Below, one piece after another: positions 15,196 through 40,000 of a stretch of 62,089 nt of DNA. Source of the DNA: Nemertoderma westbladi (Eukaryota > Animalia > Xenacoelomorpha). The notes beneath the pieces were generated by a model. It was not told where the DNA came from and made no database searches. It worked only from the letters and a program-made list of their open reading frames with translations. The translations under genes and the position numbers were made by a program. How positions within the stretch are numbered: the stretch's first letter is position 1; each line of letters starts with the position of its first letter. The stretch lies in NCBI GenBank assembly GCA_032718475.1, contig JAUCBJ010004684.1:1-62089 (forward strand), in the 5' to 3' direction.

Positions 15196-17578
15196 TCTAT
15201 AAATTCCACGGTTATGATCGCAACATTTGAAGGGAATCCCAAAGCAACAGTTATATGTTGCTACAGTCCAACCAATGCCTCAGAGCCAGAACAAGCAGTC
15301 TGAAGAACTGACTGGACTTATAAAGGACATTCCGAAACACAATGTTAAAGTCATTACTGGTGACCTGAATGCGCAAATTGGCCCAGAAGACATCAAGGGT
15401 TACACCTATAACACCAGTTCTAACAGAAATGGGTACTTACTTTTAGACCTAATGGAAGAATGTGAATTGATACCAACAAACAACACATTCGAAAAGAGTA
15501 AGGGGAAGCTATGGACCTTTCAATACCCTAATGGAACCAAAGCCCTTAGCACAACTGGATTACATCCTTATAAACAAAAAGTGGAGAAACAGCATGATCA
15601 ACTGCGAGGCATACAGCTCGTTCAACCTAATTGGTTCGGACCACAAAATTGTGACTGCAGAGATTAGACTCAGTTTGAGAGCCAGCAAACCCAGGACAAG
15701 CAAGCAAATCAAATATGACTGGGAGAAACTCAGAACTGACAATGCTGTAAAGGATGCTTATACAGTAGAAATTCAAAACCGCTTTGAAGCACTTCAGTCA
15801 ATGGATGAAGACCAATCCACCAATTCAATATACCAGAATGTAATAACAGCCCACAAGGAATCAGCTAAGAGGCATATCCCCCAGAAACCCAAACGAAAAC
15901 AGTATGTGCCATGGCAAAACTCTGAGGTTACTTGTAAGAGAGAAGATCTTAAGATAGCATACAAAGTTAAAACCGAACAACCAACAACCGAAAACATTAA
16001 CAAGGTTGAGAAAGCTAAGGACGATCTTAAATTGGCCTACAACATCAGCCAGGAAAAGTACATACATGATAAAACTGAAGCAATTACAACTGCTCACATA
16101 CAGCAACAATCATATATCTGGTCGGAAAAGTTGTGCAAAGCCAAAATCAGTCAAAATCAAAAAATAAGTCAAATCCGATAGTCCTGAAGAACGTGTTGGG
16201 AAGTGGAAAAATCACTTCAGCAACTTGCTAGGGCAGCCACCAAACATCGAGGTCAGCCCTACAAGGAAAATATATGACAAGACACTACCTATAGAAACAG
16301 GGGACTTCACACCTGCCGAACTCCAAAGAAGCATTAAAAGCATGTCCAATAATAAAGCGAGTGGATTAGATGAAATCCCAGCCGGAGGTATGGAAAACCG
16401 GAGTGCTAAACAGACCATGATTGAATTTTTGCAACCGCATGTTAAAAGGGGAAAAGCCACCACCAATTTGGACTAAAGGTCAACTAAAGCCTCTCCCCAA
16501 GAAAGGAGACCTCGGCATACCAACAAACTATCGTGGGATCTGTCTGCTTGTGGTAGCTGCCAAAATATACAATAAAATGATTCTATATAGGATTAGGCTT
16601 AGAGAAACTACTGCGTAAGAGCAAAAACGGATTTCGACCAAGTAGATCAACAATGGTGAAACTGAGTTTTTCTCAATCCTGGCTGGGGTACTGCAAGGTG
16701 ACACATTAGCACCATTACTATTTGTAATTGTGCTGGATTACGCAATGAGGACGGCAACAAAGGGTGAAGACCTGGGATTCACACTTCAAGAACGCAGAAG
16801 TAGTAGATATCCGGCAACTACAGTCACAGACACCGACTTTGCGGATGACATCGCCCTGCTCTTTAATACGCTAGCAGATGCACAGCTTCTACTAAATAAA
16901 GTGGAGAGGGCTGCTAAGGAGGTTGGATTGCATATAAATGCTACAAAGACCGAATTCATGACCTTTAATGTTGAGGGAAACTTGACAACCATTGATAATA
17001 ATCAACTAAGGAAGGTCGATGACTTCCAGTACCTTGGATCATGGATAGAGAGTAGTAAAAAGGACATAGAAGTTAGGAAAGCAAAGGCTTGGGTAGCTCT
17101 ATCAAAAATGGATACCATCTGGAAATCAGATCTCTCCAGGCACCTGAAGAGTAAGTTCTTTCGAGCCACAGTGGAAAGTGTATTTTTATACTGGGGTGAG
17201 ACCTGGACACTAACTAAATTACTTGAACAACGAATTGATGGTTGCTACACAAGACTACTAAGGGCAGCCCTAAACATCAGCTGGAGACAACACATGACAA
17301 ACGCCGAGCTTTATGGTACAATACCATCTGTATCAACCACCCTCCGTGAACGCAGATTAAGATTCAGTGGGCACTGCTGGCGAAGTAAAGACGAGGTCAT
17401 ACCAGATCTACTTTTCTGGCAACCAACTCATGGAAAGCGTAGTCGTGGACGACCGGCCATAACATATATAGATCAACTGGAAAGGGATACTGAACTTGGG
17501 AGAAACGAAATTGCGACAACTATGTAGAATCGGGAAGCCTGGAAGGATCTCATTTCCACTGTCCGAGTAGTAGTAGTA
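15196..17578 (+). mobile_element. 5'-truncated non-LTR retrotransposon (LINE), RTE/RTEX-like, about 2.4 kb, with (AGT)n tail and 16-bp TSD GGATTAGTAAATATTA
   Basis: APE endonuclease motifs (CYSPT, GDLNA, LDYIL, SDH), RT motifs (PKKGD..NYRGI, GVLQGDTLAP, FADDIALL, YLGS) and an RTE-type C-terminus (RLRFSGHCWR, GKRSRGRP). The tail AGTAGTAGTAGTA is at 17566-17578. Identical 16-mers flank the element at 15180-15195 and 17579-17594. Confidence 0.92.
15200..17527 (+). pseudogene. Frameshifted, internally deleted endonuclease/reverse transcriptase ORF of the LINE
   Basis: The protein is split over ORFs 15227-15667, 15531-16181, 16225-16476, 16421-16618 and 16730-17527. NGFRPSRST is joined directly to NGETEFF near 16652, so the usual D-F-x-K-A-F-D RT motif is missing. 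Confidence 0.88.
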
Positions 17579-17604
17579 GGATTAGTAAATATTAGATGGG
17601 TTTG

Positions 17605-17680
17605 TGAAAACAAAACAAATCAAATAAAAATTGAATATAAACGAAATGAAATTTATATTCGTTTCGTTATGCCATCCCTA
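17605..17680 (-). mobile_element. Possible remnant end of a hAT-type MITE
   Basis: It ends in TGCCATCCCTA (reverse complement TAGGGATGGCA, like an Ac-type terminus) and has AAACGAA/TTCGTTTCG subterminal-like motifs. No partner end is visible. Confidence 0.3.
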
Positions 17681-17705
17681 CTTCCTAGGGCTTAACAATA
17701 TATAT

Positions 17706-18232
17706 TTTATTTACTTGCAGGGTTGAAATTTACTTTATTTACTTGTAGGGCTAAAATCTACTTTATTTACTTGCAGGGCTACAATCTACTTTATTTACTT
17801 GCAGGGCTACAATCTACTTTTATTTACTTGCAGGGTTAAAATCTACTTTATTTACTTGCAGGGCTACAATCTGCTTTATTTACTTGCAGGGCTACAATCT
17901 ACTTTATTTACTTGCAGGGCTACAATCTACTTTTATTTACTTGCAGGGTTAAAATCTACTTTATTTACTTGCAGGGTTACAATCTACTTTATTTACTTGC
18001 AGGGCTACAATCTACTTTATTTACTTGCAGGGCTACAATCTACTTTTATTTACTTGCAGGGTTAAAATCTACTTTATTTACTTGCAGGGTTAAAATCTAC
18101 TTTATTTACTTGCAGGGCTACAATCTACTTTGTTTATTTGCAGGGTTAAAATCTACTTTATTTACTTGCAGGGCTAAAATCTACTTTATTTACTTGCGGG
18201 GTTAAAATCTACTTTATTTACTTGCAGGGCTA
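17706..18232 (+). repeat. Minisatellite 2: 28/29-bp unit CTTTATTTACTTGCAGGGCTACAATCTA, about 18-19 copies, each a copy of the 3' splice acceptor
   Basis: Period 28 (for example 17761 and 17789). The last copy TTTATTTACTTGCAG|GGCTAA runs directly into the DCAF11 exon at 18228. Confidence 0.95.
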
Positions 18233-18358
18233 ACGACGGTTGTATTTACGTATACGATCGTTGTCGCAACGAACGCACATTGAAACTGAACGGTCACGAA
18301 GACGATCTAGGTTGCGTTCGATTTGCCGATTCATCAGGACAAATATTCTACTCGGCAG
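18228..18358 (+). CDS. DCAF11: DCAF11/WDR23 internal exon (not in the ORF track): (G)ANDGCIYVYDRCRNERTLKLNGHEDDLGCVRFADSSGQIFYSA(G)
   Basis: My translation from 18229 matches recalled human DCAF11 GANDGCLYVFDREQNRRTLQIESHEDDVNAVAFADISSQILFSGG. Acceptor TGCAG ends at 18227 and donor AG|GTATTT is at 18359. The phase-1 join to the next exon gives GGC (Gly). Confidence 0.92.
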
Positions 18359-18765: not shown

Positions 18766-19032
18766 GCGACGATGGACTATGCAAGGTATGGGACCGCCGT
18801 ACTATATCGTCGAACAGACCGGAGCCGGTTGGGATTCTGGCGGGCCATTGTGACGGGATTACCTTCCTGGACTCCATGGGGGACGCCCGCCATTTAATAA
18901 CCAACAGTAAAGACCAATCGATAAAACTGTGGGACCTTCGGAAGTTCTCTACTCGGGATGCAGTCCAGTCTACGCGGAGAGTGGTTGCTGGGCAACAGTG
19001 GGACTACCGCTGGGAGGATGTACCCAGACACG
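18766..19032 (+). CDS. DCAF11: DCAF11/WDR23 internal exon: (G)DDGLCKVWDRR...GHCDGITFLDSMGDARHLITNSKDQSIKLWDLRKF...WDYRWEDVPRH
   Basis: Part of ORF 18687-19037, with WD40 repeats and the DCAF11-typical GD.R.LI.NSKDQ.IKLWD.R and WDYRW motifs. Acceptor CTAG ends at 18765 and donor CACG|GTTAGT is at 19033. Confidence 0.95.
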
Positions 19033-22000
19033 GTTAGTAACCTAGGCACATGTAGTAGCTCAGGCACAGATAGTTGTTGAAGCACGGTTAGTAACGCAGA
19101 TCGGTTAGTAACCCAGATCGGTTAGTAACCCGGATCGGTTAGTAACCCAGACCGGTTAGTAACCCAGACCGGTTAGTTATTTGGGTAGTTAATTTGGATA
19201 GTTAATTGGGTAGTAAATAGTATCCCAGATCGGTTAGTAACCCAGATCGGTTAGTAAATAGTAACCCAGATCGGGTAGTAAATAGTATCCCAGATCGGGT
19301 AGTAAATAGTAACCCAGATCGGCAGTAACCCAGATCGGTTAGTAACCCAGATCGGTTAGTAAATAGTAACCCAGATCGGGTAGTAAATAGTAACCCAGGC
19401 CGGTTAGTAACCCAAATAGTTTAGTAACCCAGATCGGGTAGTAAATAGTAACCCAGATCGGGTAGTAAATAGTAACCCAGATCGGTTAGTAACCAGATCG
19501 GTTAGAAAATAGTAACCCAGATCGGGTAGTAAATAGTAACCCAGAGCGGTTAGTAACCCAAATAGTTTAGTAACCCAGATCGGTTCGTAACCCAGATCGG
19601 GTAGTAAATAGTAACCCAGATCGGTTAGTAACCCAAATAGTTTAGTAACCCAGATCGGTTAGTAACCCAGATCGGGTAGTAAATAGTAACCCAGACCGGT
19701 TAGTAATCCAAATAGATTAGTAACACAGATCGGTTAGTAACCCAGATCGGTTAGTAACCCAGATCGGTTAATGACCCAGATCGGTTAGTAACCCAGACTC
19801 GGTTAGTATCCCAGATTGGTTAGTAACCCAGATCGGTTAGTAACCTAAGTCGGTTAGTAACCCAAACAGGTTAGTTAGTAACCATGATCGGTTAGTAACC
19901 CATATCGGTTAGTAAATAGTAACCCTGATCGGGTAGTAAATAGTAACTCGGACCGGTTTAGTAACCAAAATAGGTTAGTAACCCAATCAGTTAGTAACCC
20001 AGACTCGGTTAGTAACCCAGATCGGTTAGTAACCCAGATCGGTTAGTAACCCAGACCGGTTAGTAACCTAGATCTGTTAGTAACACAGATCGGTTAGTAA
20101 CCCAGATCGGGTAGTAACCCAGATCGATTAGTAACCTAGATCTGTTAGTAACACAGATCGGTTAGTAACCCAGATCGGTTAGTAACCCAGATCGGTTAGT
20201 AACCCAGATCGGTTAGTAACCCAGATCGGTTAGTAACCCAGATCGGTTAGTAACCCAGATCGGTTAGTAACCCAGACTCTGTTATGTTAGTAACCTAGAT
20301 CAGTTAGTAACCCAGACTCGGTTAGTAACACAGATCGGTTAGTATCCCAGACTCAGTTAGTAACCCAGATCGGTTAGTAACCTAGATCAGTTAGTAGCAC
20401 AGATCGGTTAGTAGCCCAGACTCGGTTAGTAACCAAGATCGGTTAGTAACCCAAATAGGATAGTAACCTAGATTCAGTTAGTAAGCGAAATAGGTTAGTA
20501 AGCCAAATAGGTTAGTAACCCAAATAGGTTTGTAACCCAAATAGGTTAGTAACCCAAATAGGTTAGTAACCCAAATAGGTTAGTAACCCAAATAGGTTAG
20601 TAACCCAAATAGGTTAGGGGGGACCCAAATAGGTTAGTAAGCCAAATAGGTTAGTAAGCCAAATAGGGTAGTAACCCAAATAGGTTAGTAATCCAAATAG
20701 TTTAGTAACCCAAATAGGTTAGTAAGCCAAATAGGTTAGTAACCCAAATAGGTTAGTAACCCAAATAGGTTAGTAACCCAAATAGGTTAGTAAGCCAAAT
20801 AGGTTAGTAACCCAAATAGGTTATGGGGGACCCAAATACGTTAGTAAGCCAAATAGGTTAGTAAGCCAAATAGGTTAGTAACCGAAATAGGTTAGTAACC
20901 CAAATAGGTTAGTAACCCAAATAGGTTATGGGGGACCCAAATACGTTAGTAAGCCAAATAGGTTAGTAAGCCAAATAGGTTAGTAACCCAAATAGGTTAG
21001 TAAGCCAAATAGGTTAGTAACCCAAATAGGTTAGTAACCCAAATAGGTTAGTAACCCAAATAGGTTAGTAACCCAAATAGGTTATGGGGGACCCAAATAC
21101 GTTAGTAAGCCAAATAGGTTAGTAAGCCAAATAGGTTAGTAACCGAAATAGGTTAGTAACCCAAATAGGTTAGTAACCCAAATAGGTTAGTAACCCAAAT
21201 AGGTTATGGGGGACCCAAATACGTTAGTAACCCAAATAGGTTAGTAAGCCAAATAGGTTAGTAACCCAAATAGGTTAGTAACCCAAATAGGTTAGTAACC
21301 CAAATAGGTTAGGGGGGACCCAAATAGGTTAGTAACCCAAATAGGTTAGTAACCCAAATAGGTTAGTAACCCAAATAGGTTAGTAACCCAAATAGGTTAG
21401 TAACCCAAATAGGTTAGGGGGGACCCAAATAGGTTAGTAACCCAAATAGGTTAGTAACCCAAATAGGTTAGTAACCCAAATAGGTTAGGGGGGACCCAAA
21501 TAGGTTAGTAACCCAAATAGGTTAGTAACCCAAATAGGTTAGTAAGCCAAATAGGTTAGTAACCCAAATAGGTTAGTAACCCAAATAGGTTAGTAACCCA
21601 AATAGGTTAGTAACCCAAATAGGTTATGGGGGACCCAAATACGTTAGTAAGCCAAATAGGTTAGTAACCCAAATAGGTTAGTAACCGAAATAGGTTAGTA
21701 ACCCAAATAGGTTAGTAACCCAAATAGGTTAGTAACCCAAATAGGTTAGTAACCCAAATAGGTTATGGGGGACCCAAATACGTTAGTAACCCAAATAGGT
21801 TAGTAAGCCAAGTAGGTTAGTAACCCAAATAGGTTAGTAACCCAAATAGGTTAGTAACCCAAATAGGTTAGTAACCCAAATAGGTTAGTAACCCAAATAG
21901 GTTAGGGGGGACCCAAATAGGTTAGTAAGCCAAATAGGTTAGTAAGCCAAATAGGTTAGTAACCCAAAAAGGTTAGTAACCCAAATAGGTTAGTAACCCA

Positions 22001-25000
22001 AATAGGTTAGTAACCCAAATAGGTTAGTAACCCAAATAGGTTATGGGGGACCCAAATACGTTAGTAACCCAAATAGGTTAGTAAGCCAAATAGGTTAGTA
22101 ACCCAAATAGGTTAGTAACCCAAATAGGTTAGTAACCCAAATAGGTTAGTAACCCAAATAGGTTAGTAACCCAAATAGGTTAGGGGGGACCCAAATAGGT
22201 TAGTAAGCCAAATAGGTTAGTAAGCCAAATAGGTTAGTAACCCAAAAAGGTTAGTAACCCAAATAGTTTAGTAACCCAAATAGGTTAGTAACCCAAATAG
22301 GTTAGTAACCCAAATTGGGTAGGGGGGACCCAAATAGGTTAGTAACCCAAATAGGTTAGTAACCCAAATAGGTTAGTAAGCCAAATAGGTTAGTAACACA
22401 AATAGGTTAGTAACCCAAATAGGTTAGTAACCCAAATAGGTTAGTAAGCCAAATAGGTTAGTAAAACAAATAGGTTAGTAACCCAAATAGGTTAGTAACC
22501 CAAATAGGTTAGTAACCCAAATAGGTTAGTAAGCCAAATAGGTTAGTAACCCAAATAGGTTCGGTTAGTAAGCCAAATAGGTTAGTAACCCAAATAGGTT
22601 AGGGGGGACCCAAATAGGTTAGTAAGCCAAATAGGTTAGTAACCCAAATAGGTTAGTAACCGAAATAGTTTAGTAACCCAAATAGGTTAGTAAGCCAAAT
22701 AGGTTAGTAACCCAAATAGGTTAGTAACCCAAATAGGTTAGTATCCCAAATAGGTTAGTAACCCAAATAGGTTAGGGGGGACCCAAATAGGTTAGTAACC
22801 CAAATAGGTTAGGGGGGACCCAAATAGGTTAGTAAGCCAAATAGGTTAGTAACCCAAATAGGTTAGTAACCGAAATAGTTTAGTAACCCAAATAGGTTAG
22901 TAAGCCAAATAGGTTAGTAACCCAAATAGGTTAGTAACCCAAATAGGTTAGTATCCCAAATAGTTTAGTAACCCAAATAGGTTAGTAAGCCAAATAGGTT
23001 AGTAACCCAAATAGGTTAGTAACCCAAATAGGTTAGTATCCCAAATAGGTTAGTAACCCAAATAGGTTAGGGGGGACCCAAATAGGTTAGTAAGCCAAAT
23101 AGGTTAGTAACCCAAATAGGTTAGTAACCGAAATAGTTTAGTAACCCAAATAGGTTAGTAAGCCAAATAGGTTAGTAACCCAAATAGGTTAGTAACCCAA
23201 ATAGGTTAGTATCCCAAATAGGTTAGTAACCCAAATAGGTTAGGGGGGACCCAAATAGGTTAGTAAGCCAAATAGGTTAGTAACCCAAATAGGTTAGTAA
23301 CCGAAATAGTTTAGTAACCCAAATAGGTTAGTAAGCCAAATAGGTTAGTAACCCAAATAGGTTAGTAACCCAAATAGGTTAGTATCCCAAATAGTTTAGT
23401 AACCCAAATAGGTTAGTAAGCCAAATAGGTTAGTAACCCAAATAGGTTAGTAACCCAAATAGGTTAGTATCCCAAATAGGTTAGTAACCCAAATAGGTTA
23501 GGGGGGACCCAAATAGGTTAGTAAGCCAAATAGGTTAGTAACCCAAATAGGTTAGTAACCGAAATAGTTTAGTAACCCAAATAGGTTAGTAAGCCAAATA
23601 GGTTAGTAACCCAAATAGGTTAGTAACCCAAATAGGTTAGTATCCCAAATAGGTTAGTAACCCAAATAGGTTAGTAACCCAAATAGTTTAGTAACCCAAA
23701 TAGGTTAGTAAGCCAAATAGGTTAGTAACCCAAATAGGTTAGGGGGGACCCAAATAGGTTAGTAACCCAAATAGGTTAGTAACCCAAATAGGTTAGTAAG
23801 CCAAATAGGTTAGTAACCCAAATAGGTTAGTAACCCAAATAGGTTAGTAACCCAAATAGGTTAGTAACCCAAATAGGTTATGGGGGACCCAAATACGTTA
23901 GTAAGCCAAATAGGTTAGTAAGCCAAATAGGTTAGTAACCGAAATAGGTTAGTAACCCAAATAGGTTAGTAACCCAAATAGGTTAGTAACCCAAATAGGT
24001 TATGGGGGACCCAAATACGTTAGTAACCCAAATAGGTTAGTAAGCCAAATAGGTTAGTAACCCAAATAGGTTAGTAACCCAAATAGGTTAGTAACCCAAA
24101 TAGGTTAGTAACCCAAATAGGTTAGTAACCCAAATAGGTTAGGGGGGACCCAAATAGGTTAGTAAGCCAAATAGGTTAGTAAGCCAAATAGGTTAGTAAC
24201 CCAAAAAGGTTAGTAACCCAAATAGTTTAGTAACCCAAATAGGTTAGTAACCCAAATAGGTTAGTAACCCAAATTGGGTAGGGGGGACCCAAATAGGTTA
24301 GTAACCCAAATAGGTTAGTAACCCAAATAGGTTAGTAAGCCAAATAGGTTAGTAACACAAATAGGTTAGTAAGCCAAATAGGTTAGTAACCCAAATAGGG
24401 GGGACCCAAATAGGTTAGTAACCCAAATAGGTTAGTAACCCAAATAGGTTAGTAAGCCAAATAGGTTAGTAACACAAATAGGTTAGTAACCCAAATATGT
24501 TAGTAACCCAAATAGGTTAGTAAGCCAAATAGGTTAGTAAAACAAATAGGTTAGTAACCCAAATAGGTTAGTAACCCAAATAGGTTAGTAACCCAAATAG
24601 GTTAGTAAGCCAAATAGGTTAGTAACCCAAATAGGTTCGGTTAGTAAGCCAAATAGGTTAGTAACCCAAATAGGTTAGGGGGGACCCAAATAGGTTAGTA
24701 AGCCAAATAGGTTAGTAACCCAAATAGGTTAGTAACCGAAATAGTTTAGTAACCCAAATAGGTTAGTAAGCCAAATAGGTTAGTAACCCAAATAGGTTAG
24801 TAACCCAAATAGGTTAGTATCCCAAATAGGTTAGTAACCCAAATAGTTTAGTAACCCAAATAGGTTAGTAAGCCAAATAGGTTAGTAACCCAAATAGGTT
24901 AGTAACCCAAATAGTTTAGTAACCCAAATAGGTTAGTAACCCAAATAGGTTAGGGGGGACCCAAATAGGTTAGTAACCCAAATAGGTTAGTAACCCAAAT

Positions 25001-28000
25001 AGGTTAGTAAGCCAAATAGGTTAGTAACACAAATAGGTTAGTAACCCAAATAGTTTAGTAACCCAAATAGGTTAGTAAGCCAAATAGGTTAGTAACGCAA
25101 ATAGGTTAGTAACCCAAATAGGTTAGTAACCCAAATAGGTTAGTAACCCAAATAGGTTAGTAAGCCAAATAGGTTAGTAACCCAAATAGGTTCGGTTAGT
25201 AAGCCAAATAGGTTAGTAACCCAAATAGGTTAGTAACCCAAATAGGTTAGTAAGCCAAATAGGTTAGTAACACAAATAGGTTAGTAACCCAAATAGTTTA
25301 GTAACCCAAATAGGTTAGTAAGCCAAATAGGTTAGTAACGCAAATAGGTTAGTAACCCAAATAGGTTAGTAACCCAAATAGGTTAGTAACCCAAATAGGT
25401 TAGTAAGCCAAATAGGTTAGTAACACAAATAGGTTAGTAAGCCAAATAGGTTAGTAACCCAAATAGGTTAGGGGGGACCCAAATAGGTTAGTAACCCAAA
25501 TAGGTTAGTAACCCAAATAGGTTAGTAACCCAAATAGGTTAGTAACCCAAATAGGTTAGTAAGCCAAATAGGTTAGTAACCCAAATAGGTTCGGTTAGTA
25601 AGCCAAATAGGTTAGTAAGCCAAATAGGTTAGTAACCGAAATAGGTTAGTAACCCAAATAGGTTAGTAACCCAAATAGGTTAGTAACCCAAATAGGTTAG
25701 TAACCCAAATAGGTTATGGGGGACCCAAATACGTTAGTAACCCAAATAGGTTAGTAAGCCAAATAGGTTAGTAACCCAAATAGGTTAGTAACCCAAATAG
25801 GTTAGTAACCCAAATAGGTTAGGGGGGACCCAAATAGGTTAGTAACCCAAATAGGTTAGTAACCCAAATAGGTTAGTAACCCAAATAGGTTAGTAACCCA
25901 AATAGGTTAGTAACCCAAATAGGTTAGGGGGGACCCAAATAGGTTAGTAACCCAAATAGGTTAGTAACCCAAATAGGTTAGGGGGGACCCAAATAGGTTA
26001 GTAACCCAAATAGGTTAGTAACCCAAGTAGGTTAGTAAGCCAAATAGGTTAGTAACCCAAATAGGTTAGTAACCCAAATAGGTTAGTAACCCAAATAGGT
26101 TATGGGGGACCCAAATACGTTAGTAAGCCAAATAGGTTAGTAACCCAAATAGGTTAGTAACCGAAATAGGTTAGTAACCCAAATAGGTTAGTAACCCAAA
26201 TAGGTTAGTAACCCAAATAGGTTAGTAACCCAAATAGGTTATGGGGGACCCAAATACGTTAGTAACCCAAATAGGTTAGTAAGCCAAATAGGTTAGTAAC
26301 CCAAATAGGTTAGTAACCCAAATAGGTTAGTAACCCAAATAGGTTAGTAACCCAAATAGGTTAGGGGGGACCCAAATAGGTTAGTAAGCCAAATAGGTTA
26401 GTAAGCCAAATAGGTTAGTAACCCAAAAAGGTTAGTAACCCAAATAGTTTAGTAACCCAAATAGGTTAGTAACCCAAATAGGTTAGTAACCCAAATTGGG
26501 TAGGGGGGACCCAAATAGGTTAGTAACCCAAATAGGTTAGTAACCCAAATAGGTTAGTAAGCCAAATAGGTTAGTAACACAAATAGGTTAGTAAGCCAAA
26601 TAGGTTAGTAACCCAAATAGGGGGGACCCAAATAGGTTAGTAACCCAAATAGGTTAGTAACCCAAATAGGTTAGTAAGCCAAATAGGTTAGTAACACAAA
26701 TAGGTTAGTAACCCAAATAGGTTAGTAACCCAAATAGGTTAGTAAGCCAAATAGGTTAGTAAAACAAATAGGTTAGTAACCCAAATAGGTTAGTAACCCA
26801 AATAGGTTAGTAACCCAAATAGGTTAGTAAGCCAAATAGGTTAGTAACCCAAATAGGTTCGGTTAGTAAGCCAAATAGGTTAGTAACCCAAATATGTTAG
26901 GGGGGACCCAAATAGGTTAGTAAGCCAAATAGGTTAGTAACCCAAATAGGTTAGTAACCGAAATAGTTTAGTAACCCAAATAGGTTAGTAAGCCAAATAG
27001 GTTAGTAACCCAAATAGGTTAGTAACCCAAATAGGTTAGTATCCCAAATAGGTTAGTAACCCAAATAGGTTAGGGGGGACCCAAATAGGTTAGTAACCCA
27101 AATAGGTTAGGGGGGACCCAAATAGGTTAGTAAGCCAAATAGGTTAGTAACCCAAATAGGTTAGTAACCGAAATAGTTTAGTAACCCAAATAGGTTAGTA
27201 AGCCAAATAGGTTAGTAACCCAAATAGGTTAGTAACCCAAATAGGTTAGTATCCCAAATAGTTTAGTAACCCAAATAGGTTAGTAAGCCAAATAGGTTAG
27301 TAACCCAAATAGGTTAGTAACCCAAATAGGTTAGTATCCCAAATAGGTTAGTAACCCAAATAGGTTAGGGGGGACCCAAATAGGTTAGTAAGCCAAATAG
27401 GTTAGTAACCCAAATAGGTTAGTAACCGAAATAGTTTAGTAACCCAAATAGGTTAGTAAGCCAAATAGGTTAGTTAACCAAATAGGTTAGTAACCCAAAT
27501 AGGTTAGTATCCCAAATAGGTTAGTAACCCAAATAGGTTAGGGGGGACCCAAATAGGTTAGTAACCCAAATAGGTTAGGGGGGACCCAGGGACCCAAATA
27601 GGTTAGTAACCCAAATAGGTTAGGGGGGACCCAAATAGGTTAGTAAGCCAAATAGGTTAGTAACCCAAATAGGTTAGTAACCGAAATAGTTTAGTAACCC
27701 AAATAGGTTAGTAAGCCAAATAGGTTAGTAACCCAAATAGGTTAGTAACCCAAATAGGTTAGTATCCCAAATAGTTTAGTAACCCAAATAGGTTAGTAAG
27801 CCAAATAGGTTAGTAACCCAAATAGGTTAGTAACCCAAATAGGTTAGTAACCCAAATAGGTTAGTATCCCAAATAGGTTAGTAACCCAAATAGGTTAGGG
27901 GGGACCCAAATAGGTTAGTAAGCCAAATAGGTTAGTAACCCAAATAGGTTAGTAACCGAAATAGTTTAGTAACCCAAATAGGTTAGTAAGCCAAATAGGT

Positions 28001-31000
28001 TAGTAACCCAAATAGGTTAGTAACCCAAATAGGTTAGTATCCCAAATAGGTTAGTAACCCAAATAGGTTAGTAACCCAAATAGTTTAGTAACCCAAATAG
28101 GTTAGTAAGCCAAATAGGTTAGTAACCCAAATAGGTTAGGGGGGACCCAAATAGGTTAGTAACCCAAATAGGTTAGTAACCCAAATAGGTTAGTAAGCCA
28201 AATAGGTTAGTAACCCAAATAGGTTAGTAACCCAAATAGGTTAGTAACCCAAATAGGTTAGTAACCCAAATAGGTTAGTAACCCAAATAGGTTAGGGGGG
28301 ACCCAAATAGGTTAGTAACCCAAATAGGTTAGTAACCCAAATAGGTTAGTAACCCAAATAGGTTAGTAACCCAAATAGGTTAGTAACCCAAATAGGTTAG
28401 GGGGGACCCAAATAGGTTAGTAACCCAAATAGGTTAGTAACCCAAATAGGTTAGGGGGGACCCAAATAGGTTAGTAACCCAAATAGGTTAGTAACCCAAA
28501 TAGGTTAGTAAGCCAAATAGGTTAGTAACCCAAATAGGTTAGTAACCCAAATAGGTTAGTAACCCAAATAGGTTAGTAACCCAAATAGGTTAGTAACCCA
28601 AATAGGTTATGGGGGACCCAAATACGTTAGTAAGCCAAATAGGTTAGTAACCCAAATAGGTTAGTAACCGAAATAGGTTAGTAACCCAAATAGGTTAGTA
28701 ACCCAAATAGGTTAGTAACCCAAATAGGTTAGTAACCCAAATAGGTTATGGGGGACCCAAATACGTTAGTAACCCAAATAGGTTAGTAAGCCAAATAGGT
28801 TAGTAACCCAAATAGGTTAGTAACCCAAATAGGTTAGTAACCCAAATAGGTTAGTAACCCAAATAGGTTAGGGGGGACCCAAATAGGTTAGTAAGCCAAA
28901 TAGGTTAGTAAGCCAAATAGGTTAGTAACCCAAAAAGGTTAGTAACCCAAATAGTTTAGTAACCCAAATAGGTTAGTAACCCAAATAGGTTAGTAACCCA
29001 AATTGGGTAGGGGGGACCCAAATAGGTTAGTAACCCAAATAGGTTAGTAACCCAAATAGGTTAGTAAGCCAAATAGGTTAGTAACACAAATAGGTTAGTA
29101 AGCCAAATATGTTAGTAACCCAAATAGGGGGGACCCAAATAGGTTAGTAACCCAAATAGGTTAGTAACCCAAATAGGTTAGTAAGCCAAATAGGTTAGTA
29201 ACACAAATAGGTTAGTAACCCAAATAGGTTAGTAACCCAAATAGGTTAGTAAGCCAAATAGGTTAGTAAAACAAATAGGTTAGTAACCCAAATAGGTTAG
29301 TAACCCAAATAGGTTAGTAACCCAAATAGGTTAGTAAGCCAAATAGGTTAGTAACCCAAATAGGTTCGGTTAGTAAGCCAAATAGGTTAGTAACCCAAAT
29401 AGGTTAGGGGGGACCCAAATAGGTTAGTAAGCCAAATAGGTTAGTAACCCAAATAGGTTAGTAACCGAAATAGTTTAGTAACCCAAATAGGTTAGTAAGC
29501 CAAATAGGTTAGTAACCCAAATAGGTTAGTAACCCAAATAGGTTAGTATCCCAAATAGGTTAGTAACCCAAATAGGTTAGGGGGGACCCAAATAGGTTAG
29601 TAACCCAAATAGGTTAGGGGGGACCCAAATAGGTTAGTAAGCCAAATAGGTTAGTAACCCAAATAGGTTAGTAACCGAAATAGTTTAGTAACCCAAATAG
29701 GTTAGTAAGCCAAATAGGTTAGTAACCCAAATAGGTTAGTAACCCAAATAGGTTAGTATCCCAAATAGTTTAGTAACCCAAATAGGTTAGTAAGCCAAAT
29801 AGGTTAGTAACCCAAATAGGTTAGTAACCCAAATAGGTTAGTATCCCAAATAGGTTAGTAACCCAAATAGGTTAGGGGGGACCCAAATAGGTTAGGGGGG
29901 ACCCAAATAGGTTAGTAAGCCAAATAGGTTAGTAACCCAAATAGGTTAGTAACCGAAATAGTTTAGTAACCCAAATAGGTTAGTAAGCCAAATAGGTTAG
30001 TAACCCAAATAGGTTAGTAACCCAAATAGGTTAGTATCCCAAATAGGTTAGTAACCCAAATAGGTTAGGGGGGACCCAAATAGGTTAGTAACCCAAATAG
30101 GTTAGGGGGGACCCAGGGACCCAAATAGGTTAGTAACCCAAATAGGTTAGGGGGGACCCAAATAGGTTAGTAAGCCAAATAGGTTAGTAACCCAAATAGG
30201 TTAGTAACCGAAATAGTTTAGTAACCCAAATAGGTTAGTAAGCCAAATAGGTTAGTAACCCAAATAGGTTAGTAACCCAAATAGGTTAGTATCCCAAATA
30301 GTTTAGTAACCCAAATAGGTTAGTAAGCCAAATAGGTTAGTAACCCAAATAGGTTAGTAACCCAAATAGGTTAGTAACCCAAATAGGTTAGTATCCCAAA
30401 TAGGTTAGTAACCCAAATAGGTTAGGGGGGACCCAAATAGGTTAGTAAGCCAAATAGGTTAGTAACCCAAATAGGTTAGTAACCGAAATAGTTTAGTAAC
30501 CCAAATAGGTTAGTAAGCCAAATAGGTTAGTAACCCAAATAGGTTAGTAACCCAAATAGGTTAGTATCCCAAATAGGTTAGTAACCCAAATAGGTTAGTA
30601 ACCCAAATAGTTTAGTAACCCAAATAGGTTAGTAAGCCAAATAGGTTAGTAACCCAAATAGGTTAGGGGGGACCCAAATAGGTTAGTAACCCAAATAGGT
30701 TAGTAACCCAAATAGGTTAGTAAGCCAAATAGGTTAGTAACCCAAATAGGTTAGTAACCCAAATAGGTTAGTAACCCAAATAGGTTAGTAACCCAAATAG
30801 GTTATGGGGGACCCAAATACGTTAGTAACCCAAATAGGTTAGTAAGCCAAATAGGTTAGTAACCCAAATAGGTTAGTAACCCAAATTGGTTAGTAACCCA
30901 AATAGGTTAGTGACCCAAATAGGTTAGTAACCCAAATAGGTTAGGGGGGACCCAAATAGGTTAGTAAGCCAAATAGGTTAGTAAGCCAAATAGGTTAGTA

Positions 31001-34000
31001 ACCCAAAAAGGTTAGTAACCCAAATAGTTTAGTAACCCAAATAGGTTAGTAACCCAAATAGGTTAGTAACCCAAATTGGGTAGGGGGGACCCAAATAGGT
31101 TAGTAACCCAAATAGGTTAGTAACCCAAATAGGTTAGTAAGCCAAATAGGTTAGTAACACAAATAGGTTAGTAAGCCAAATAGGTTAGTAACCCAAATAG
31201 GGGGGACCCAAATAGGTTAGTAACCCAAATAGGTTAGTAACCCAAATAGGTTAGTAAGCCAAATAGGTTAGTAACACAAATAGGTTAGTAACCCAAATAG
31301 GTTAGTAACCCAAATAGGTTAGTAAGCCAAATAGGTTAGTAAAACAAATAGGTTAGTAACCCAAATAGGTTAGTAACCCAAATAGGTTAGTAACCCAAAT
31401 AGGTTAGTAAGCCAAATAGGTTAGTAACCCAAATAGGTTCGGTTAGTAAGCCAAATAGGTTAGTAACCCAAATAGGTTAGGGGGGACCCAAATAGGTTAG
31501 TAAGCCAAATAGGTTAGTAACCCAAATAGGTTAGTAACCGAAATAGTTTAGTAACCCAAATAGGTTAGTAAGCCAAATAGGTTAGTAACCCAAATAGGTT
31601 AGTAACCCAAATAGGTTAGTATCCCAAATAGGTTAGTAACCCAAATAGTTTAGTAACCCAAATAGGTTAGTAAGCCAAATAGGTTAGTAACCCAAATAGG
31701 TTAGTAACCCAAATAGTTTAGTAACCCAAATAGGTTAGTAACCCAAATAGGTTAGGGGGGACCCAAATAGGTTAGTAACCCAAATAGGTTAGTAACCCAA
31801 ATAGGTTAGTAACACAAATAGGTTAGTAACCCAAATAGTTTAGTAACCCAAATAGGTTAGTAAGCCAAATAGGTTAGTAACGCAAATAGGTTAGTAACCC
31901 AAATAGGTTAGTAACCCAAATAGGTTAGTAACCCAAATAGGTTAGTAAGCCAAATAGGTTAGTAACCCAAATAGGTTCGGTTAGTAAGCCAAATAGGTTA
32001 GTAACCCAAATAGGTTAGTAACCCAAATAGGTTAGTAAGCCAAATAGGTTAGTAACACAAATAGGTTAGTAACCCAAATAGTTTAGTAACCCAAATAGGT
32101 TAGTAAGCCAAATAGGTTAGTAACGCAAATAGGTTAGTAACCCAAATAGGTTAGTAACCCAAATAGGTTATGGGGGACCCAAATACGTTAGTAACCCAAA
32201 TAGGTTAGTAAGCCAAATAGGTTAGTAACCCAAATAGGTTAGTAACCCAAATAGGTTAGTAACCCAAATAGGTTAGTGACCCAAATAGGTTAGTAACCCA
32301 AATAGGTTAGGGGGGACCCAAATAGGTTAGTAAGCCAAATAGGTTAGTAAGCCAAATAGGTTAGTAACCCAAAAAGGTTAGTAACCCAAATAGTTTAGTA
32401 ACCCAAATAGGTTAGTAACCCAAATGGGTTAGTAACCCAAATTGGGTAGGGGGGACCCAAATAGGTTAGTAACCCAAATAGGTTAGTAACCCAAATAGGT
32501 TAGTAAGCCAAATAGGTTAGTAACACAAATAGGTTAGTAAGCCAAATAGGTTAGTAACCCAAATAGGGGGGACCCAAATAGGTTAGTAACCCAAATAGGT
32601 TAGTAACCCAAATAGGTTAGTAAGCCAAATAGGTTAGTAACACAAATAGGTTAGTAACCCAAATAGGTTAGTAACCCAAATAGGTTAGTAAGCCAAATAG
32701 GTTAGTAAAACAAATAGGTTAGTAACCCAAATAGGTTAGTAACCCAAATAGGTTAGTAAGCCAAATAGGTTAGTAACCCAAATAGGTTCGGTTAGTAAGC
32801 CAAATAGGTTAGTAACCCAAATAGGTTAGGGGGGACCCAAATAGGTTAGTAAGCCAAATAGGTTAGTAACCCAAATAGGTTAGTAACCGAAATAGTTTAG
32901 TAACCCAAATAGGTTAGTAAGCCAAATAGGTTAGTAACCCAAATAGGTTAGTAACCCAAATAGGTTAGTATCCCAAATAGGTTAGTAACCCAAATAGTTT
33001 AGTAACCCAAATAGGTTAGTAAGCCAAATAGGTTAGTAACCCAAATAGGTTAGTAACCCAAATAGTTTAGTAACCCAAATAGGTTAGTAACCCAAATAGG
33101 TTAGGGGGGACCCAAATAGGTTAGTAACCCAAATAGGTTAGTAACCCAAATAGGTTAGTAAGCCAAATAGGTTAGTAACACAAATAGGTTAGTAACCCAA
33201 ATAGTTTAGTAACCCAAATAGGTTAGTAAGCCAAATAGGTTAGTAACGCAAATAGGTTAGTAACCCAAATAGGTTAGTAACCCAAATAGGTTAGTAACCC
33301 AAATAGGTTAGTAAGCCAAATAGGTTAGTAACCCAAATAGGTTCGGTTAGTAAGCCAAATAGGTTAGTAACCCAAATAGGTTAGTAACCCAAATAGGTTA
33401 GTAAGCCAAATAGGTTAGTAACACAAATAGGTTAGTAACCCAAATAGTTTAGTAACCCAAATAGGTTAGTAAGCCAAATAGGTTAGTAACGCAAATAGGT
33501 TAGTAACCCAAATAGGTTAGTAACCCAAATAGGTTAGTAACTCAAATAGGTTAGTAAGCCAAATAGGTTAGTAACACAAATAGGTTAGTAAGCCAAATAG
33601 GTTAGTAACCCAAATAGGTTAGGGGGGACCCAAATAGGTTAGTAACCCAAATAGGTTAGTAACCCAAATAGGTTAGTAAGCCAAATAGGTTAGTAACACA
33701 AATAGGTTAGTAACCCAAATAGTTTAGTAACCCAAATAGGTTAGTAAGCCAAATAGGTTAGTAACGCAAATAGGTTAGTAACCCAAATAGGTTAGTAACC
33801 CAAATAGGTTAGTAACCCAAATAGGTTAGTAAGCCAAATAGGTTAGTAACCCAAATAGGTTCGGTTAGTAAGCCAAATAGGTTAGTAACCCAAATAGGTT
33901 AGTAACCCAAATAGGATAGTAACCCAAATAGGTTAGTAACCCAAATAGGTTAGGCGGGACCCAAATAGGTTAGTAAGCCAAATAGGTTAGTAACCCAAAT

Positions 34001-37000
34001 AGGTTAGTAACCGAAATAGTTTAGTAACCCAAATAGGTTAGTAAGCCAAATAGCTTAGTAACCCAAATAGGTTAGTAACCCAAATAGGTTAGTAACCCAA
34101 ATAGGTTAGTAACCCAAATAGTTTAGTAACCCAAATAGGTTAGTAAGCCAAATAGGTTAGTAACCCAAATTGGGTAGTAACCCAAATAGGTTCGTAACCC
34201 AAATAGGTTAGGCGGGACCCAAATAGGTTAGTAAGCCAAATAGGTTAGTAACCCAAATAGGTTAGTAACCGAAATAGTTTAGTAACCCAAATAGGTTAGT
34301 AAGCCAAATAGCTTAGTAACCCAAATAGGTTAGTAACCCAAATAGGTTAGTAACCCAAATAGGTTAGTAACCCAAATAGTTTAGTAACCCAAATAGGTTA
34401 GTAAGCCAAATAGGTTAGTAATCCAAATAGGTTAGTGAGCCAAATAGGTTAGTAACCCAAATAGGTTAGTAACACAAATAGGTTAGTAACCCAAATAGGT
34501 TAGTAAGCCAAATAGGTTAGTAACCCAAATAGGTTAGTAACACAAATAGGTTAGTAAGCCAAATAGGTTAGTAACCCAAATAGGTTAGTATCCCAAATAG
34601 GTTAGTATCCCAAATAGGTTAGTAAGCGAAATAGGTTAGTAACCCAAATAGGTTAGTAAGCCAAATAGGTTAGTAACCCAAATAGGTTAGTAAGCCAAAT
34701 AGGTTAGTAACCCAAATAGGTTAGTAAGCCAAATAGGTTAGTGAGCCAAATAGGTTAGTAACCCAAATAGGTTAGTAACACAAATAGGTTAGTAAGCCAA
34801 ATAGGTTAGTAACCCAAATAGGTTAGTAACACAAATAGGTTAGTAAGCCAAATAGGTTAGTAACCCAAATAGGTTCGGTTAGTAAGCCAAATAGGTTAGT
34901 AACCCAAATAGGTTAGTAACACAAATAGGTTAGTAACCCAAATAGGTTCGGTTAGTAAGCCAAATAGGTTAGTAACCCAAATAGGTTAGTAACCCAAATA
35001 AGTTAGTAACCCAAATAGGTTAGTAACCCAAATATGTTAGGGGGGACCCAAATAGGTTAGTAGGCCAAATAGGTTAGTAACCCAAATAGGTTAGTAGGCC
35101 AAATAGGTTAGTAACCCAAATAGGTTAGTAACCGAAATAGTTTAGTAACCCAAATAGGTTAGTAACCCAAATAGGTTAGTAACCCAAATAGGTTAGTAAG
35201 CCAAATAGGTTAGTAACCCAAATAGGTTCGGTTAGTAAGCCAAATAGGTTAGTAACCCAAATAGGTTAGGGGGGACCCAAATAGGTTAGTAAGCCAAATA
35301 GGTTAGTAACCCAAATAGGTTAGTAACCGAAATAGTTTAGTAACCCAAATAGGTTAGTAAGCCAAATAGGTTAGTAACCCAAATAGGTTAGTAACCCAAA
35401 TAGGTTAGTATCCCAAATAGGTTAGTAACCCAAATAGTTTAGTAACCCAAATAGGTTAGTAAGCCAAATAGGTTAGTAACCCAAATAGGTTAGTAACCCA
35501 AATAGTTTAGTAACCCAAATAGGTTAGTAACCCAAATAGGTTAGGGGGGACCCAAATAGGTTAGTAACCCAAATAGGTTAGTAACCCAAATAGGTTAGTA
35601 AGCCAAATAGGTTAGTAACACAAATAGGTTAGTAACCCAAATAGTTTAGTAACCCAAATAGGTTAGTAAGCCAAATAGGTTAGTAACGCAAATAGGTTAG
35701 TAACCCAAATAGGTTAGTAACCCAAATAGGTTAGTAACCCAAATAGGTTAGTAAGCCAAATAGGTTAGTAACCCAAATAGGTTCGGTTAGTAAGCCAAAT
35801 AGGTTAGTAACCCAAATAGGTTAGTAACCCAAATAGGTTAGTAAGCCAAATAGGTTAGTAACACAAATAGGTTAGTAACCCAAATAGTTTAGTAACCCAA
35901 ATAGGTTAGTAAGCCAAATAGGTTAGTAACGCAAATAGGTTAGTAACCCAAATAGGTTAGTAACCCAAATAGGTTAGTAACCCAAATAGGTTAGTAAGCC
36001 AAATAGGTTAGTAACACAAATAGGTTAGTAAGCCAAATAGGTTAGTAACCCAAATAGGTTAGGGGGGACCCAAATAGGTTAGTAACCCAAATAGGTTAGT
36101 AACCCAAATAGGTTAGTAAGCCAAATAGGTTAGTAACACAAATAGGTTAGTAACCCAAATAGTTTAGTAACCCAAATAGGTTAGTAAGCCAAATAGGTTA
36201 GTAACGCAAATAGGTTAGTAACCCAAATAGGTTAGTAACCCAAATAGGTTAGTAACCCAAATAGGTTAGTAAGCCAAATAGGTTAGTAACCCAAATAGGT
36301 TCGGTTAGTAAGCCAAATAGGTTAGTAAGCCAAATAGGTTAGTAACCGAAATAGGTTAGTAACCCAAATAGGTTAGTAACCCAAATAGGTTAGTAACCCA
36401 AATAGGTTAGTAACCCAAATAGGTTATGGGGGACCCAAATACGTTAGTAACCCAAATAGGTTAGTAAGCCAAATAGGTTAGTAACCCAAATAGGTTAGTA
36501 ACCCAAATAGGTTAGTAACCCAAATAGGTTAGGGGGGACCCAAATAGGTTAGTAACCCAAATAGGTTAGTAACCCAAATAGGTTAGTAACCCAAATAGGT
36601 TAGTAACCCAAATAGGTTAGTAACCCAAATAGGTTAGTAACCCAAATAGGTTAGGGGGGACCCAAATAGGTTAGTAACCCAAATAGGTTAGTAACCCAAA
36701 TAGGTTAGTAACCCAAATAGGTTAGGGGGGACCCAAATAGGTTAGTAACCCAAATAGGTTAGTAACCCAAATAGGTTAGTGAGCCAAATAGGTTAGTAAC
36801 CCAAATAGGTTAGTAACACAAATAGGTTAGTAACCCAAATAGGTTAGTAAGCCAAATAGGTTAGTAACCCAAATAGGTTAGTAACACAAATAGGTTAGTA
36901 AGCCAAATAGGTTAGTAACCCAAATAGGTTAGTATCCCAAATAGGTTAGTATCCCAAATAGGTTAGTAAGCGAAATAGGTTAGTAACCCAAATAGGTTAG

Positions 37001-40000
37001 TAAGCCAAATAGGTTAGTAACCCAAATAGGTTAGTAAGCCAAATAGGTTAGTAACCCAAATAGGTTAGTAAGCCAAATAGGTTAGTGAGCCAAATAGGTT
37101 AGTAACCCAAATAGGTTAGTAACACAAATAGGTTAGTAAGCCAAATAGGTTAGTAACCCAAATAGGTTAGTAACACAAATAGGTTAGTAAGCCAAATAGG
37201 TTAGTAACCCAAATAGGTTCGGTTAGTAAGCCAAATAGGTTAGTAACCCAAATAGGTTAGTAACACAAATAGGTTAGTAACCCAAATAGGTTCGGTTAGT
37301 AAGCCAAATAGGTTAGTAACCCAAATAGGTTAGTAACCCAAATAAGTTAGTAACCCAAATAGGTTAGTAACCCAAATATGTTAGGGGGGACCCAAATAGG
37401 TTAGTAGGCCAAATAGGTTAGTAACCCAAATAGGTTAGTAGGCCAAATAGGTTAGTAACCCAAATAGGTTAGTAACCGAAATAGTTTAGTAACCCAAATA
37501 GGTTAGTAACCCAAATAGGTTAGTAACCCAAATAGGTTAGTAAGCCAAATAGGTTAGTAACCCAAATAGGTTCGGTTAGTAAGCCAAATAGGTTAGTAAC
37601 CCAAATAGGTTAGGGGGGACCCAAATAGGTTAGTAAGCCAAATAGGTTAGTAACCCAAATAGGTTAGTAACCGAAATAGTTTAGTAACCCAAATAGGTTA
37701 GTAAGCCAAATAGGTTAGTAACCCAAATAGGTTAGTAACCCAAATAGGTTAGTATCCCAAATAGGTTAGTAACCCAAATAGTTTAGTAACCCAAATAGGT
37801 TAGTAAGCCAAATAGGTTAGTAACCCAAATAGGTTAGTAACCCAAATAGTTTAGTAACCCAAATAGGTTAGTAACCCAAATAGGTTAGGGGGGACCCAAA
37901 TAGGTTAGTAACCCAAATAGGTTAGTAACCCAAATAGGTTAGTAAGCCAAATAGGTTAGTAACACAAATAGGTTAGTAACCCAAATAGTTTAGTAACCCA
38001 AATAGGTTAGTAAGCCAAATAGGTTAGTAACGCAAATAGGTTAGTAACCCAAATAGGTTAGTAACCCAAATAGGTTAGTAACCCAAATAGGTTAGTAAGC
38101 CAAATAGGTTAGTAACCCAAATAGGTTCGGTTAGTAAGCCAAATAGGTTAGTAACCCAAATAGGTTAGTAACCCAAATAGGTTAGTAAGCCAAATAGGTT
38201 AGTAACACAAATAGGTTAGTAACCCAAATAGTTTAGTAACCCAAATAGGTTAGTAAGCCAAATAGGTTAGTAACGCAAATAGGTTAGTAACCCAAATAGG
38301 TTAGTAACCCAAATAGGTTAGTAACCCAAATAGGTTAGTAAGCCAAATAGGTTAGTAACACAAATAGGTTAGTAAGCCAAATAGGTTAGTAACCCAAATA
38401 GGTTAGGGGGGACCCAAATAGGTTAGTAACCCAAATAGGTTAGTAACCCAAATAGGTTAGTAAGCCAAATAGGTTAGTAACACAAATAGGTTAGTAACCC
38501 AAATAGTTTAGTAACCCAAATAGGTTAGTAAGCCAAATAGGTTAGTAACGCAAATAGGTTAGTAACCCAAATAGGTTAGTAACCCAAATAGGTTAGTAAC
38601 CCAAATAGGTTAGTAAGCCAAATAGGTTAGTAACCCAAATAGGTTCGGTTAGTAAGCCAAATAGGTTAGTAAGCCAAATAGGTTAGTAACCGAAATAGGT
38701 TAGTAACCCAAATAGGTTAGTAACCCAAATAGGTTAGTAACCCAAATAGGTTAGTAACCCAAATAGGTTATGGGGGACCCAAATACGTTAGTAACCCAAA
38801 TAGGTTAGTAAGCCAAATAGGTTAGTAACCCAAATAGGTTAGTAACCCAAATAGGTTAGTAACCCAAATAGGTTAGGGGGGACCCAAATAGGTTAGTAAC
38901 CCAAATAGGTTAGTAACCCAAATAGGTTAGTAACCCAAATAGGTTAGTAACCCAAATAGGTTAGTAACCCAAATAGGTTAGTAACCCAAATAGGTTAGGG
39001 GGGACCCAAATAGGTTAGTAACCCAAATAGGTTAGTAACCCAAATAGGTTAGTAACCCAAATAGGTTAGGGGGGACCCAAATAGGTTAGTAACCCAAATA
39101 GGTTAGTAACCCAAATAGGTTAGTAAGCCAAATAGGTTAGTAACCCAAATAGGTTAGTAACCCAAATAGGTTAGTAACCCAAATAGGTTAGTAACCCAAA
39201 TAGGTTATGGGGGACCCAAATACGTTAGTAAGCCAAATAGGTTAGTAACCCAAATAGGTTAGTAACCGAAATAGGTTAGTAACCCAAATAGGTTAGTAAC
39301 CCAAATAGGTTAGTAACCCAAATAGGTTAGTAACCCAAATAGGTTATGGGGGACCCAAATACGTTAGTAACCCAAATAGGTTAGTAAGCCAAATAGGTTA
39401 GTAACCCAAATAGGTTAGTAACCCAAATAGGTTAGTAACCCAAATAGGTTAGTAACCCAAATAGGTTAGGGGGGACCCAAATAGGTTAGTAAGCCAAATA
39501 GGTTAGTAAGCCAAATAGGTTAGTAACCCAAAAAGGTTAGTAACCCAAATAGTTTAGTAACCCAAATAGGTTAGTAACCCAAATAGGTTAGTAACCCAAA
39601 TTGGGTAGGGGGGACCCAAATAGGTTAGTAACCCAAATAGGTTAGTAACCCAAATAGGTTAGTAAGCCAAATAGGTTAGTAACACAAATAGGTTAGTAAC
39701 CCAAATAGGGGGGACCCAAATAGGTTAGTAACCCAAATAGGTTAGTAACCCAAATAGGTTAGTAAGCCAAATAGGTTAGTAACACAAATAGGTTAGTAAC
39801 CCAAATAGGTTAGTAACCCAAATAGGTTAGTAAGCCAAATAGGTTAGTAAAACAAATAGATTAGTAACCCAAATAGGTTAGTAACCCAAATAGGTTAGTA
39901 ACCCAAATAGGTTAGTAAGCCAAATAGGTTAGTAACCCAAATAGGTTCGGTTAGTAAGCCAAATAGGTTAGTAACCCAAATAGGTTAGGGGGGACCCAAA

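What the first reader, a model, noticed from the sequence alone, without database searches (positions are those of the whole stretch)
17706..18232. About 18 tandem copies of the 3' splice acceptor; the real one is last and its immediate neighbour is disabled
Seen: almost every unit carries TTTATTTACTTGCAG|GG(C/T)TA, matching the functional acceptor and the first exon bases. The penultimate copy is mutated to TTGCGGG (about 18194-18200) and has lost its AG. Inference: exon definition picks the copy nearest the downstream donor, and the closest competitor may have been removed by selection. Most upstream choices would add 28/29-nt multiples and shift the frame.
Basis: partly seen in the sequence, partly recalled or inferred. 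Interest (0 to 1): 0.7.

Follow-up and report, generated by a model that had tools for sequence, protein, structure and literature searches.

The report
Splice-acceptor "mirage" repeat in DCAF11
An intron of an animal DCAF11 gene ends in 19 tandem copies of its own splice acceptor and the one spliced transcript seen uses the last copy; the "disabled neighbour" is intact in other samples, so this is likely a tolerated repeat of a known kind ("mirage"), notable mainly because two much larger repeats in the same gene are copies of its splice donors.

Summary
The array is real: 19 copies of a 28/29-nt unit (intron end plus first 5 exon bases) at 17690-18232, in an animal DCAF11/WDR23 gene. A spliced contig joins the upstream exon at the last copy; all 18 upstream positions would give a premature stop. 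The AG>GG change in copy 18 is in the window but is not fixed. One X2 contig shows an intact penultimate AG directly, and the X1 and X3 contigs fit arrays with intact penultimate AGs and other copy numbers. No listed piece or depth bin of these three DNA runs carries the G. "Removed by selection" is therefore not supported; exon-side choice of the last copy is plausible but inferred. This is a new member of a known kind: amphioxus "mirages" and human F7-type junction minisatellites. This scan has noted such arrays in other genomes. Their assembled lengths are unverified; the window starts with what looks like a library adapter.

The parts
17690..18232 (+). Acceptor-junction minisatellite: 19 copies of a 28/29-nt unit (last 23-24 intron bases plus first 5 exon bases); a decayed extra copy ends at 17688
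18198..18198 (+). A>G change that removes the AG of copy 18; seen only in the window's haplotype (private allele or error)
18226..18227 (+). Functional 3' splice-site AG (copy 19)
   Evidence: X4 record 31 joins the upstream exon here
18228..18358 (+). DCAF11 exon A (131 nt)
   Evidence: homologous residues in P0001, P0003, P0041
18359..18765 (+). 407-nt GT..AG intron, no junction array at either end
   Evidence: joint table
18766..19032 (+). DCAF11 exon B (267 nt)
   Evidence: PDB 9ptu_A, DCAF11, E 2.9e-37
19033..51060 (+). Functional donor at 19033, three decayed 18-nt copies of the donor junction (19033-19086), then a 32-kb 17-mer array of about 1,843 copies derived from that junction
   Evidence: X4 joins 19032 to 51125 (loose end equals the exon C start)
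51125..51435 (+). DCAF11 last coding exon C, ending at the stop codon
68..15195 (+). 15-kb 19-mer array of about 798 copies; unit is the last 13 bases of the upstream exon plus a GT-starting hexamer, i.e. a donor-junction array. The upstream exon itself is not in the window
   Evidence: X4 loose end before 18227; 170 exact 13+6 copies
15218..17580 (+). High-copy LINE-type element (reverse transcriptase, weak endonuclease hit, broken frames, short-repeat tail) between the donor array and the acceptor array
   Evidence: RVT_1 E 4.1e-14, Exo_endo_phos_2 E 0.077; depth of 10^5 to 10^6 against 20-40 on the exons
51430..57094 (+). 5.6-kb 29-mer array of about 196 copies that starts with the last codon and the stop codon; not a splice junction as far as seen

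Best explanation
The array is a variable-number tandem repeat made of the intron end and first five exon bases of DCAF11, the spliced contig uses its last copy, and it is likely a tolerated by-product of slippage or unequal crossing-over rather than a control device. Shown: unit anatomy, use of the last acceptor in one contig, stops after every upstream acceptor, and different array make-up in other samples. Inferred: the last copy wins because it alone is followed by the real exon and gives the shortest exon (131 nt) to the downstream donor (exon-side choice), and any upstream use would be degraded as nonsense mRNA. Inferred: the AG>GG change is a private mutation or an amplification error with no special role. 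The same gene shows the mirror image at two donors, where the exon-adjacent copy is used despite hundreds of downstream copies.
For: Spliced contig X4 record 31 (836 nt, depth 197) joins the upstream exon at 18227/18228, and X4 has no cover over 17615-18219. All 18 upstream positions give a stop. Penultimate AG intact on X2 record 11. X1 contigs of 142, 87, 52 nt and start 18204 and X3 contigs of 87 nt and start 18203 are reproduced by all-AG models with fewer or different units. The donor arrays match their junctions: 170 exact copies of the 13+6 junction word, and the 17-mer at 19138 equals the donor-C junction 18-mer minus one base. Amphioxus mirages likewise vary in copy number and do not disturb splicing (PMC3087553 and PMC3902484, passages). 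With long flanking introns human splice sites closest across the exon are preferred (PMC9225289, abstract and passages).
Against: Only one spliced contig, from a run labelled 'DNA?' by guess; contigs drop rare variants, so minor upstream use is not excluded, and nonsense decay would hide it. PMC9225289 reports an overall upstream preference for competing 3' sites that is reduced, not said to be reversed, under exon definition. The all-AG models are my reconstructions: X1 record 5 (51 nt, depth 12.8) is not explained, 5 of X1's 13 laid contigs were not listed, and X3 has no contig over the array's left edge (17687-17773) although the model predicts one. A missing contig is therefore not proof of absence. 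Three junction arrays at six visible splice sites in one gene is more than a neutral scatter of repeats would suggest; I could not test this genome-wide.
Confidence: 0.85

Rival explanations
1. One reading: the copy next to the real acceptor competes with it, and selection has removed its AG.
For: In the window the only AG-less copy of 18 is the penultimate; chance for that named copy 2.7%. At donor C the two copies right after the real donor also lack GT, and this is shared by X1, X2 and X3, whose listed differences account for all mismatches in those contigs.
Against: Penultimate AG intact on X2 record 11 and in the X1 and X3 reconstructions. Chance that some AG is hit is 39%. The two GT-less donor copies are decayed overall (6 and 8 of 18 positions); at 6 of 18 a GT hit has probability 0.57 and at 7 of 18 0.64, so edge decay suffices. 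Array ends are excluded from homogenisation in amphioxus BflGb6 too.
Confidence: 0.06
2. The array is a length-tunable dial: upstream copies are used at a low rate, the products are destroyed by nonsense decay, and copy number sets DCAF11 level.
For: 17 upstream copies keep AG and a pyrimidine-rich stretch, all lead to stops, and make-up differs among samples. Human IFI6 and CBS use nearby pseudo-donors in part (PMC1557585 passages).
Against: No contig of X4 lies on the array. No data link copy number to expression.
Confidence: 0.07
3. The array, or its length, is an artefact of an amplified long-read library.
For: Window 16-65 is a perfect 50-nt palindrome that I recognise from memory as a doubled PCR adapter, and the upstream exon is missing behind it.
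Against: Both flanks and several units occur in X1 and X2, two studies, and units plus the right flank in X3. This can apply only to the exact copy number, to the single base 18198, and to the lengths of the 15-kb and 32-kb arrays.
Confidence: 0.02

Closest known systems
Amphioxus 'mirage' minisatellites (Adh3, globins BflGb6 and BflGb9, troponin C, PGBD5); PMC3087553 and PMC3902484, passages read; the original Adh3 paper PMC117041 was not held
   Same: Tandem copies spanning an exon-intron boundary; BflGb6 copies the intron 3' end plus the exon 5' start, as here; unit size within the 10-72 bp given for Adh3; many but not all copies keep AG or GT; copy number differs between haplotypes; splicing stays normal; both 5' and 3' boundaries can be copied.
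   Different: Different animal: exon C is 67% identical to Branchiostoma DCAF11, within the 59-74% seen across listed hits. Copy numbers in those passages are 2 to 7, against 19 here and about 800 and 1,840 for the two donor arrays of the same gene.
Human donor-junction VNTRs: F7 intron 7, IFI6 (6-16), CBS intron 13, LMNB2, PDGF; PMC1557585, abstract, passages and Discussion read
   Same: First unit spans the exon-intron junction, downstream copies are intact pseudo-sites, and the exon-adjacent site is used. This matches the 19-mer and 17-mer arrays here.
   Different: Those are donors with 5 to about 25 copies; the given finding is an acceptor array, for which that paper's 5'-to-3' scanning model does not explain use of the last copy.
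Satellite-filled giant introns of Drosophila Y genes; PMC9031259, search listing only, the rest recalled
   Same: A gene whose span is mostly intronic tandem repeat (53,349 of 57,027 bases here) and is still spliced.
   Different: From recall those are simple satellites, not copies of the gene's own splice junctions.

Membership tests
Mirage minisatellite | Tandem unit spans an exon-intron boundary of the host gene | tested here: met
   Unit = intron end plus 5 exon bases; junction fixed by spliced contig
Mirage minisatellite | Many but not all copies keep the splice dinucleotide | tested here: met
   17 of 18 upstream copies keep AG
Mirage minisatellite | Normal splicing at the authentic site | tested here: met
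   One spliced contig uses copy 19; no X4 cover on the array; minor forms not detectable
Mirage minisatellite | Length and make-up vary between haplotypes | tested here: met
   X2 record 11 has a different last two units; X1 and X3 fit other unit orders; exact copy numbers are rough
Mirage minisatellite | Somatic instability (reported for Adh3) | not testable with these tools
   Needs single-molecule data from one individual
Selected loss of a competing splice site | The disabling change is fixed or common in the species | tested here: not met
   Intact penultimate AG seen directly in X2 and inferred in X1 and X3; G at 18198 on no listed piece or depth bin of the three DNA runs
Regulated alternative acceptors (NMD-coupled) | Upstream acceptors are used in transcripts | tested here: inconclusive
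   None seen, but only contigs were available
DCAF11/WDR23 gene | Exons match DCAF11 far better than other WD40 proteins and splice in frame | tested here: met
   9ptu_A E 2.9e-37 against 1.3e-15 for the next hit; 187 hits at E<=1e-20, named ones mostly DCAF11; open frame of 235 aa across exons A-C

The most novel reading that the evidence does not exclude
In this animal splice junctions seed repeats that grow to satellite size as a rule, not by accident. One DCAF11 gene carries three junction arrays at six visible splice sites, two of them 15 and 32 kb, with 1,408 copies reading AG|GTTAGT, closer to the usual donor consensus than the real CG|GTTAGT donor, yet it splices at the exon-adjacent sites. 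If the lengths hold and other genes do the same, this is a genome-wide route to giant introns and a natural test of exon-side splice-site choice against over a thousand decoys.
Probability: 0.2. Interest if true: 0.6.

Novelty: new member of a known kind. Interest (0 to 1): 0.27.

Why it matters
The acceptor array itself is one more mirage, and the striking detail (the disabled neighbour) does not hold across samples. The remaining value is the host gene: it shows acceptor and donor junction arrays side by side, the donor ones far larger than those in the papers read, with the exon-adjacent copy used each time. That supports exon-side splice-site choice in an invertebrate-like animal gene and warns annotators that such arrays create many false splice sites.

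Tried and rejected
No whole genome is held, so genome-wide frequency and the upstream exon's locus could not be read. No RNA holder was listed by the run search; X4 is treated as RNA-like only because its contig skips three introns. The look-up of earlier notes on this genome was empty. ARAGORN found no tRNA gene. Three paper look-ups failed: Zhuo 2007 by DOI and by PMC id, and Canestro 2002. A search for human acceptor VNTR examples that I recalled returned 0 papers. PMC10078293 and PMC13196383 (passages) gave no acceptor-junction array. A search on giant introns with splice-donor repeats listed 1 review; this found no report of donor-junction arrays of 15-32 kb, which is a limited search and not proof. 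Considered and rejected: recursive-splicing sites in the acceptor array (AG is followed by GG, not GT); in-frame insertion isoforms (all 6 in-frame upstream acceptors meet a stop); targeted loss of the two GT-less donor copies (general decay suffices); the 29-mer and the 58597-59256 19-mer as splice-junction arrays (no matching exon end seen). Depth-based copy numbers (about 8-10 for X1, about 15 for X3) are rough and not relied on. Supplementary files of the papers were not read.

Full report
Observation. The sequence and TRF (17706-18233, period 28, 18.8 copies, 92% matches) confirm the array. Cutting at the acceptor motif gives 19 copies whose last bases are 17720 to 18227; three units are 29 nt and the rest 28 nt. 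Sixteen upstream copies end CAG, one TAG, and copy 18 ends CGG through an A>G at 18198. A decayed further copy ends at 17688. The core 15-mer occurs nowhere else in the window.

Host gene. The exons 18228-18358, 18766-19032 and 51125-51435 give an open frame of 235 residues. Exon B's best solved-structure match is DCAF11 (9ptu_A, E 2.9e-37; next hit 1.3e-15). Exon C finds 187 proteins at E<=1e-20 among 254 candidates; the 120 listed are 59-74% identical and the named ones are mostly animal DCAF11. Branchiostoma DCAF11 is 67% identical, so the host is not amphioxus. A LINE-type element lies upstream in the same intron. No whole genome is held.

Which acceptor is used. The run search listed 6 runs, 4 holding the stretch, none on record as RNA. 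X4 record 31 (836 nt, depth 197) is nevertheless spliced: 80 bases of an exon absent from the window join at 18227/18228, the 407-nt intron is skipped with GT..AG ends, and the loose end after 19032 is the start of exon C. The upstream piece continues the DCAF11 frame as in homologues. X4 has no cover over 17615-18219. So the last copy is used in the one transcript form visible; contigs cannot show minor forms. Every one of the 18 upstream positions would meet a stop 8 to 104 codons after the acceptor; 6 are in frame but contain a stop.

Is AG>GG fixed? No. The window haplotype predicts a unique 81-nt contig at 18148-18228 holding the G. In the narrower lay (X1 13 contigs, X2 21, X3 5, X5 0; 19 pieces not listed) the depth bin 18180-18208 is fully accounted for by pieces that stop at 18197 or start at 18203-18204. 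X2 record 11 (86 nt, depth 26) runs through two whole units into the exon start, with a 29-nt last unit and no listed change at the penultimate AG; this is direct evidence. X1 has a 52-nt contig that fits 18148-18197 and is clipped at 18198. Models assembled from window units with all AGs intact reproduce X1's listed 142, 87 and 52-nt contigs and its start at 18204, and X3's 87-nt contig and start at 18203. Against the models: one X1 contig (51 nt) is unexplained and X3 lacks the predicted left-edge contig, so holes occur. Seven private changes in 504 sites give 39% for a hit on some upstream AG and 2.7% for a named copy. The change is best read as a private allele or an amplification error. 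From recalled splicing rules (not tested), a branch point 22-23 bases before the last AG would lie downstream of the penultimate AG, so that AG need not compete.

The larger picture. TRF shows arrays at 68-15195 (19-mer, 797.7 copies), 19085-51060 (17-mer, 1842.6 copies) and 51439-57094 (29-mer, 195.6 copies). The upstream exon end read from X4 equals 13 bases of the 19-mer unit, and the other six begin GT; 170 exact copies of this word are present. The true donor is outside the window, so its intron side is inferred from the unit. After the real donor at 19033 come three decayed 18-nt copies of the junction (3, 6 and 8 mismatches), then 17-mers that equal the junction unit minus one base; 1 of 7,936 non-repeat 18-mers reaches 12 of 18. 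Reading past either donor meets a stop or shifts the frame. X4 uses the exon-adjacent donor in both cases. Three of six visible splice sites carry a junction array, and arrays fill 53,349 of 57,027 bases. The lengths rest on one assembly whose first bases include a 50-nt palindrome that I recall as a library adapter; they are unverified.

Mechanism. Shown: unit anatomy, use of exon-adjacent sites in one contig, stops on the alternatives, variation between samples. Inferred: origin by a short duplication across the junction and growth by slippage or unequal crossing-over; choice of the copy that gives the shortest exon and is flanked by real exon sequence; removal of errors by nonsense decay. 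PMC9225289 (abstract, passages) supports exon-side proximity with long introns in human, but for 3' sites it reports a reduced upstream preference rather than a reversal.

Comparison. PMC3087553 (passages) defines amphioxus mirages: tandem copies of exon-intron boundaries, of both ends, with units of 10-160 bp, variable between haplotypes and without effect on splicing; BflGb6 copies an intron 3' end plus exon start. PMC3902484 (passages) adds troponin C and PGBD5. PMC1557585 (abstract, passages, Discussion) covers human donor-junction VNTRs. The array meets the four mirage features I could test. I reached this reading before the look-ups of earlier notes, which list 9 similar findings in at least 4 genomes and arrays of about 105 to 286 copies; those are unchecked notes.

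Verdict. Real, correctly placed, new member of a known kind; the selection story is not supported. Interest 0.27, raised a little by the two very large donor-junction arrays in the same gene.

Noticed in passing
window 68-15195: 15-kb 19-mer array whose unit is the upstream exon's last 13 bases plus a GT hexamer; 342 of 580 anchored units keep GT, and the first six anchored units in the window lack it.
   Followed up: partly
window 19033-51060: 32-kb array derived from the donor-C junction; the unit drifts from CG|GT near the exon to AG|GT (1,408 copies) further in; the two copies next to the real donor are decayed and lack GT in the window and in X1, X2, X3.
   Followed up: partly
window 51430-57094: G-rich 29-mer array of about 196 copies beginning with the last codon and stop codon; X4's contig has 46 bases beyond the stop, roughly what read-through into the array would give (predicted break 15 bases later).
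   Followed up: partly
window 16-65: Perfect 50-nt palindrome that looks like a doubled PCR library adapter (recalled); suggests a chimeric or contaminated contig start in an amplified long-read assembly.
   Followed up: partly
window 15218-17580: Very high-copy LINE-type element with broken frames, same strand as the gene, also covered in X4.
   Followed up: partly
window 58597-59256: 35 copies of a 19-mer containing a consensus donor hexamer, downstream of the gene; no matching exon end was found at its left edge.
   Followed up: no
window 60885-60965: tRNA-like stretch by eye (possible SINE head); ARAGORN called no tRNA.
   Followed up: partly
window 18228-19080: Runs X1 and X3 share a sample code but differ from the window at 4 and 15 places and from each other, so the sample likely holds several individuals or haplotypes.
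   Followed up: no
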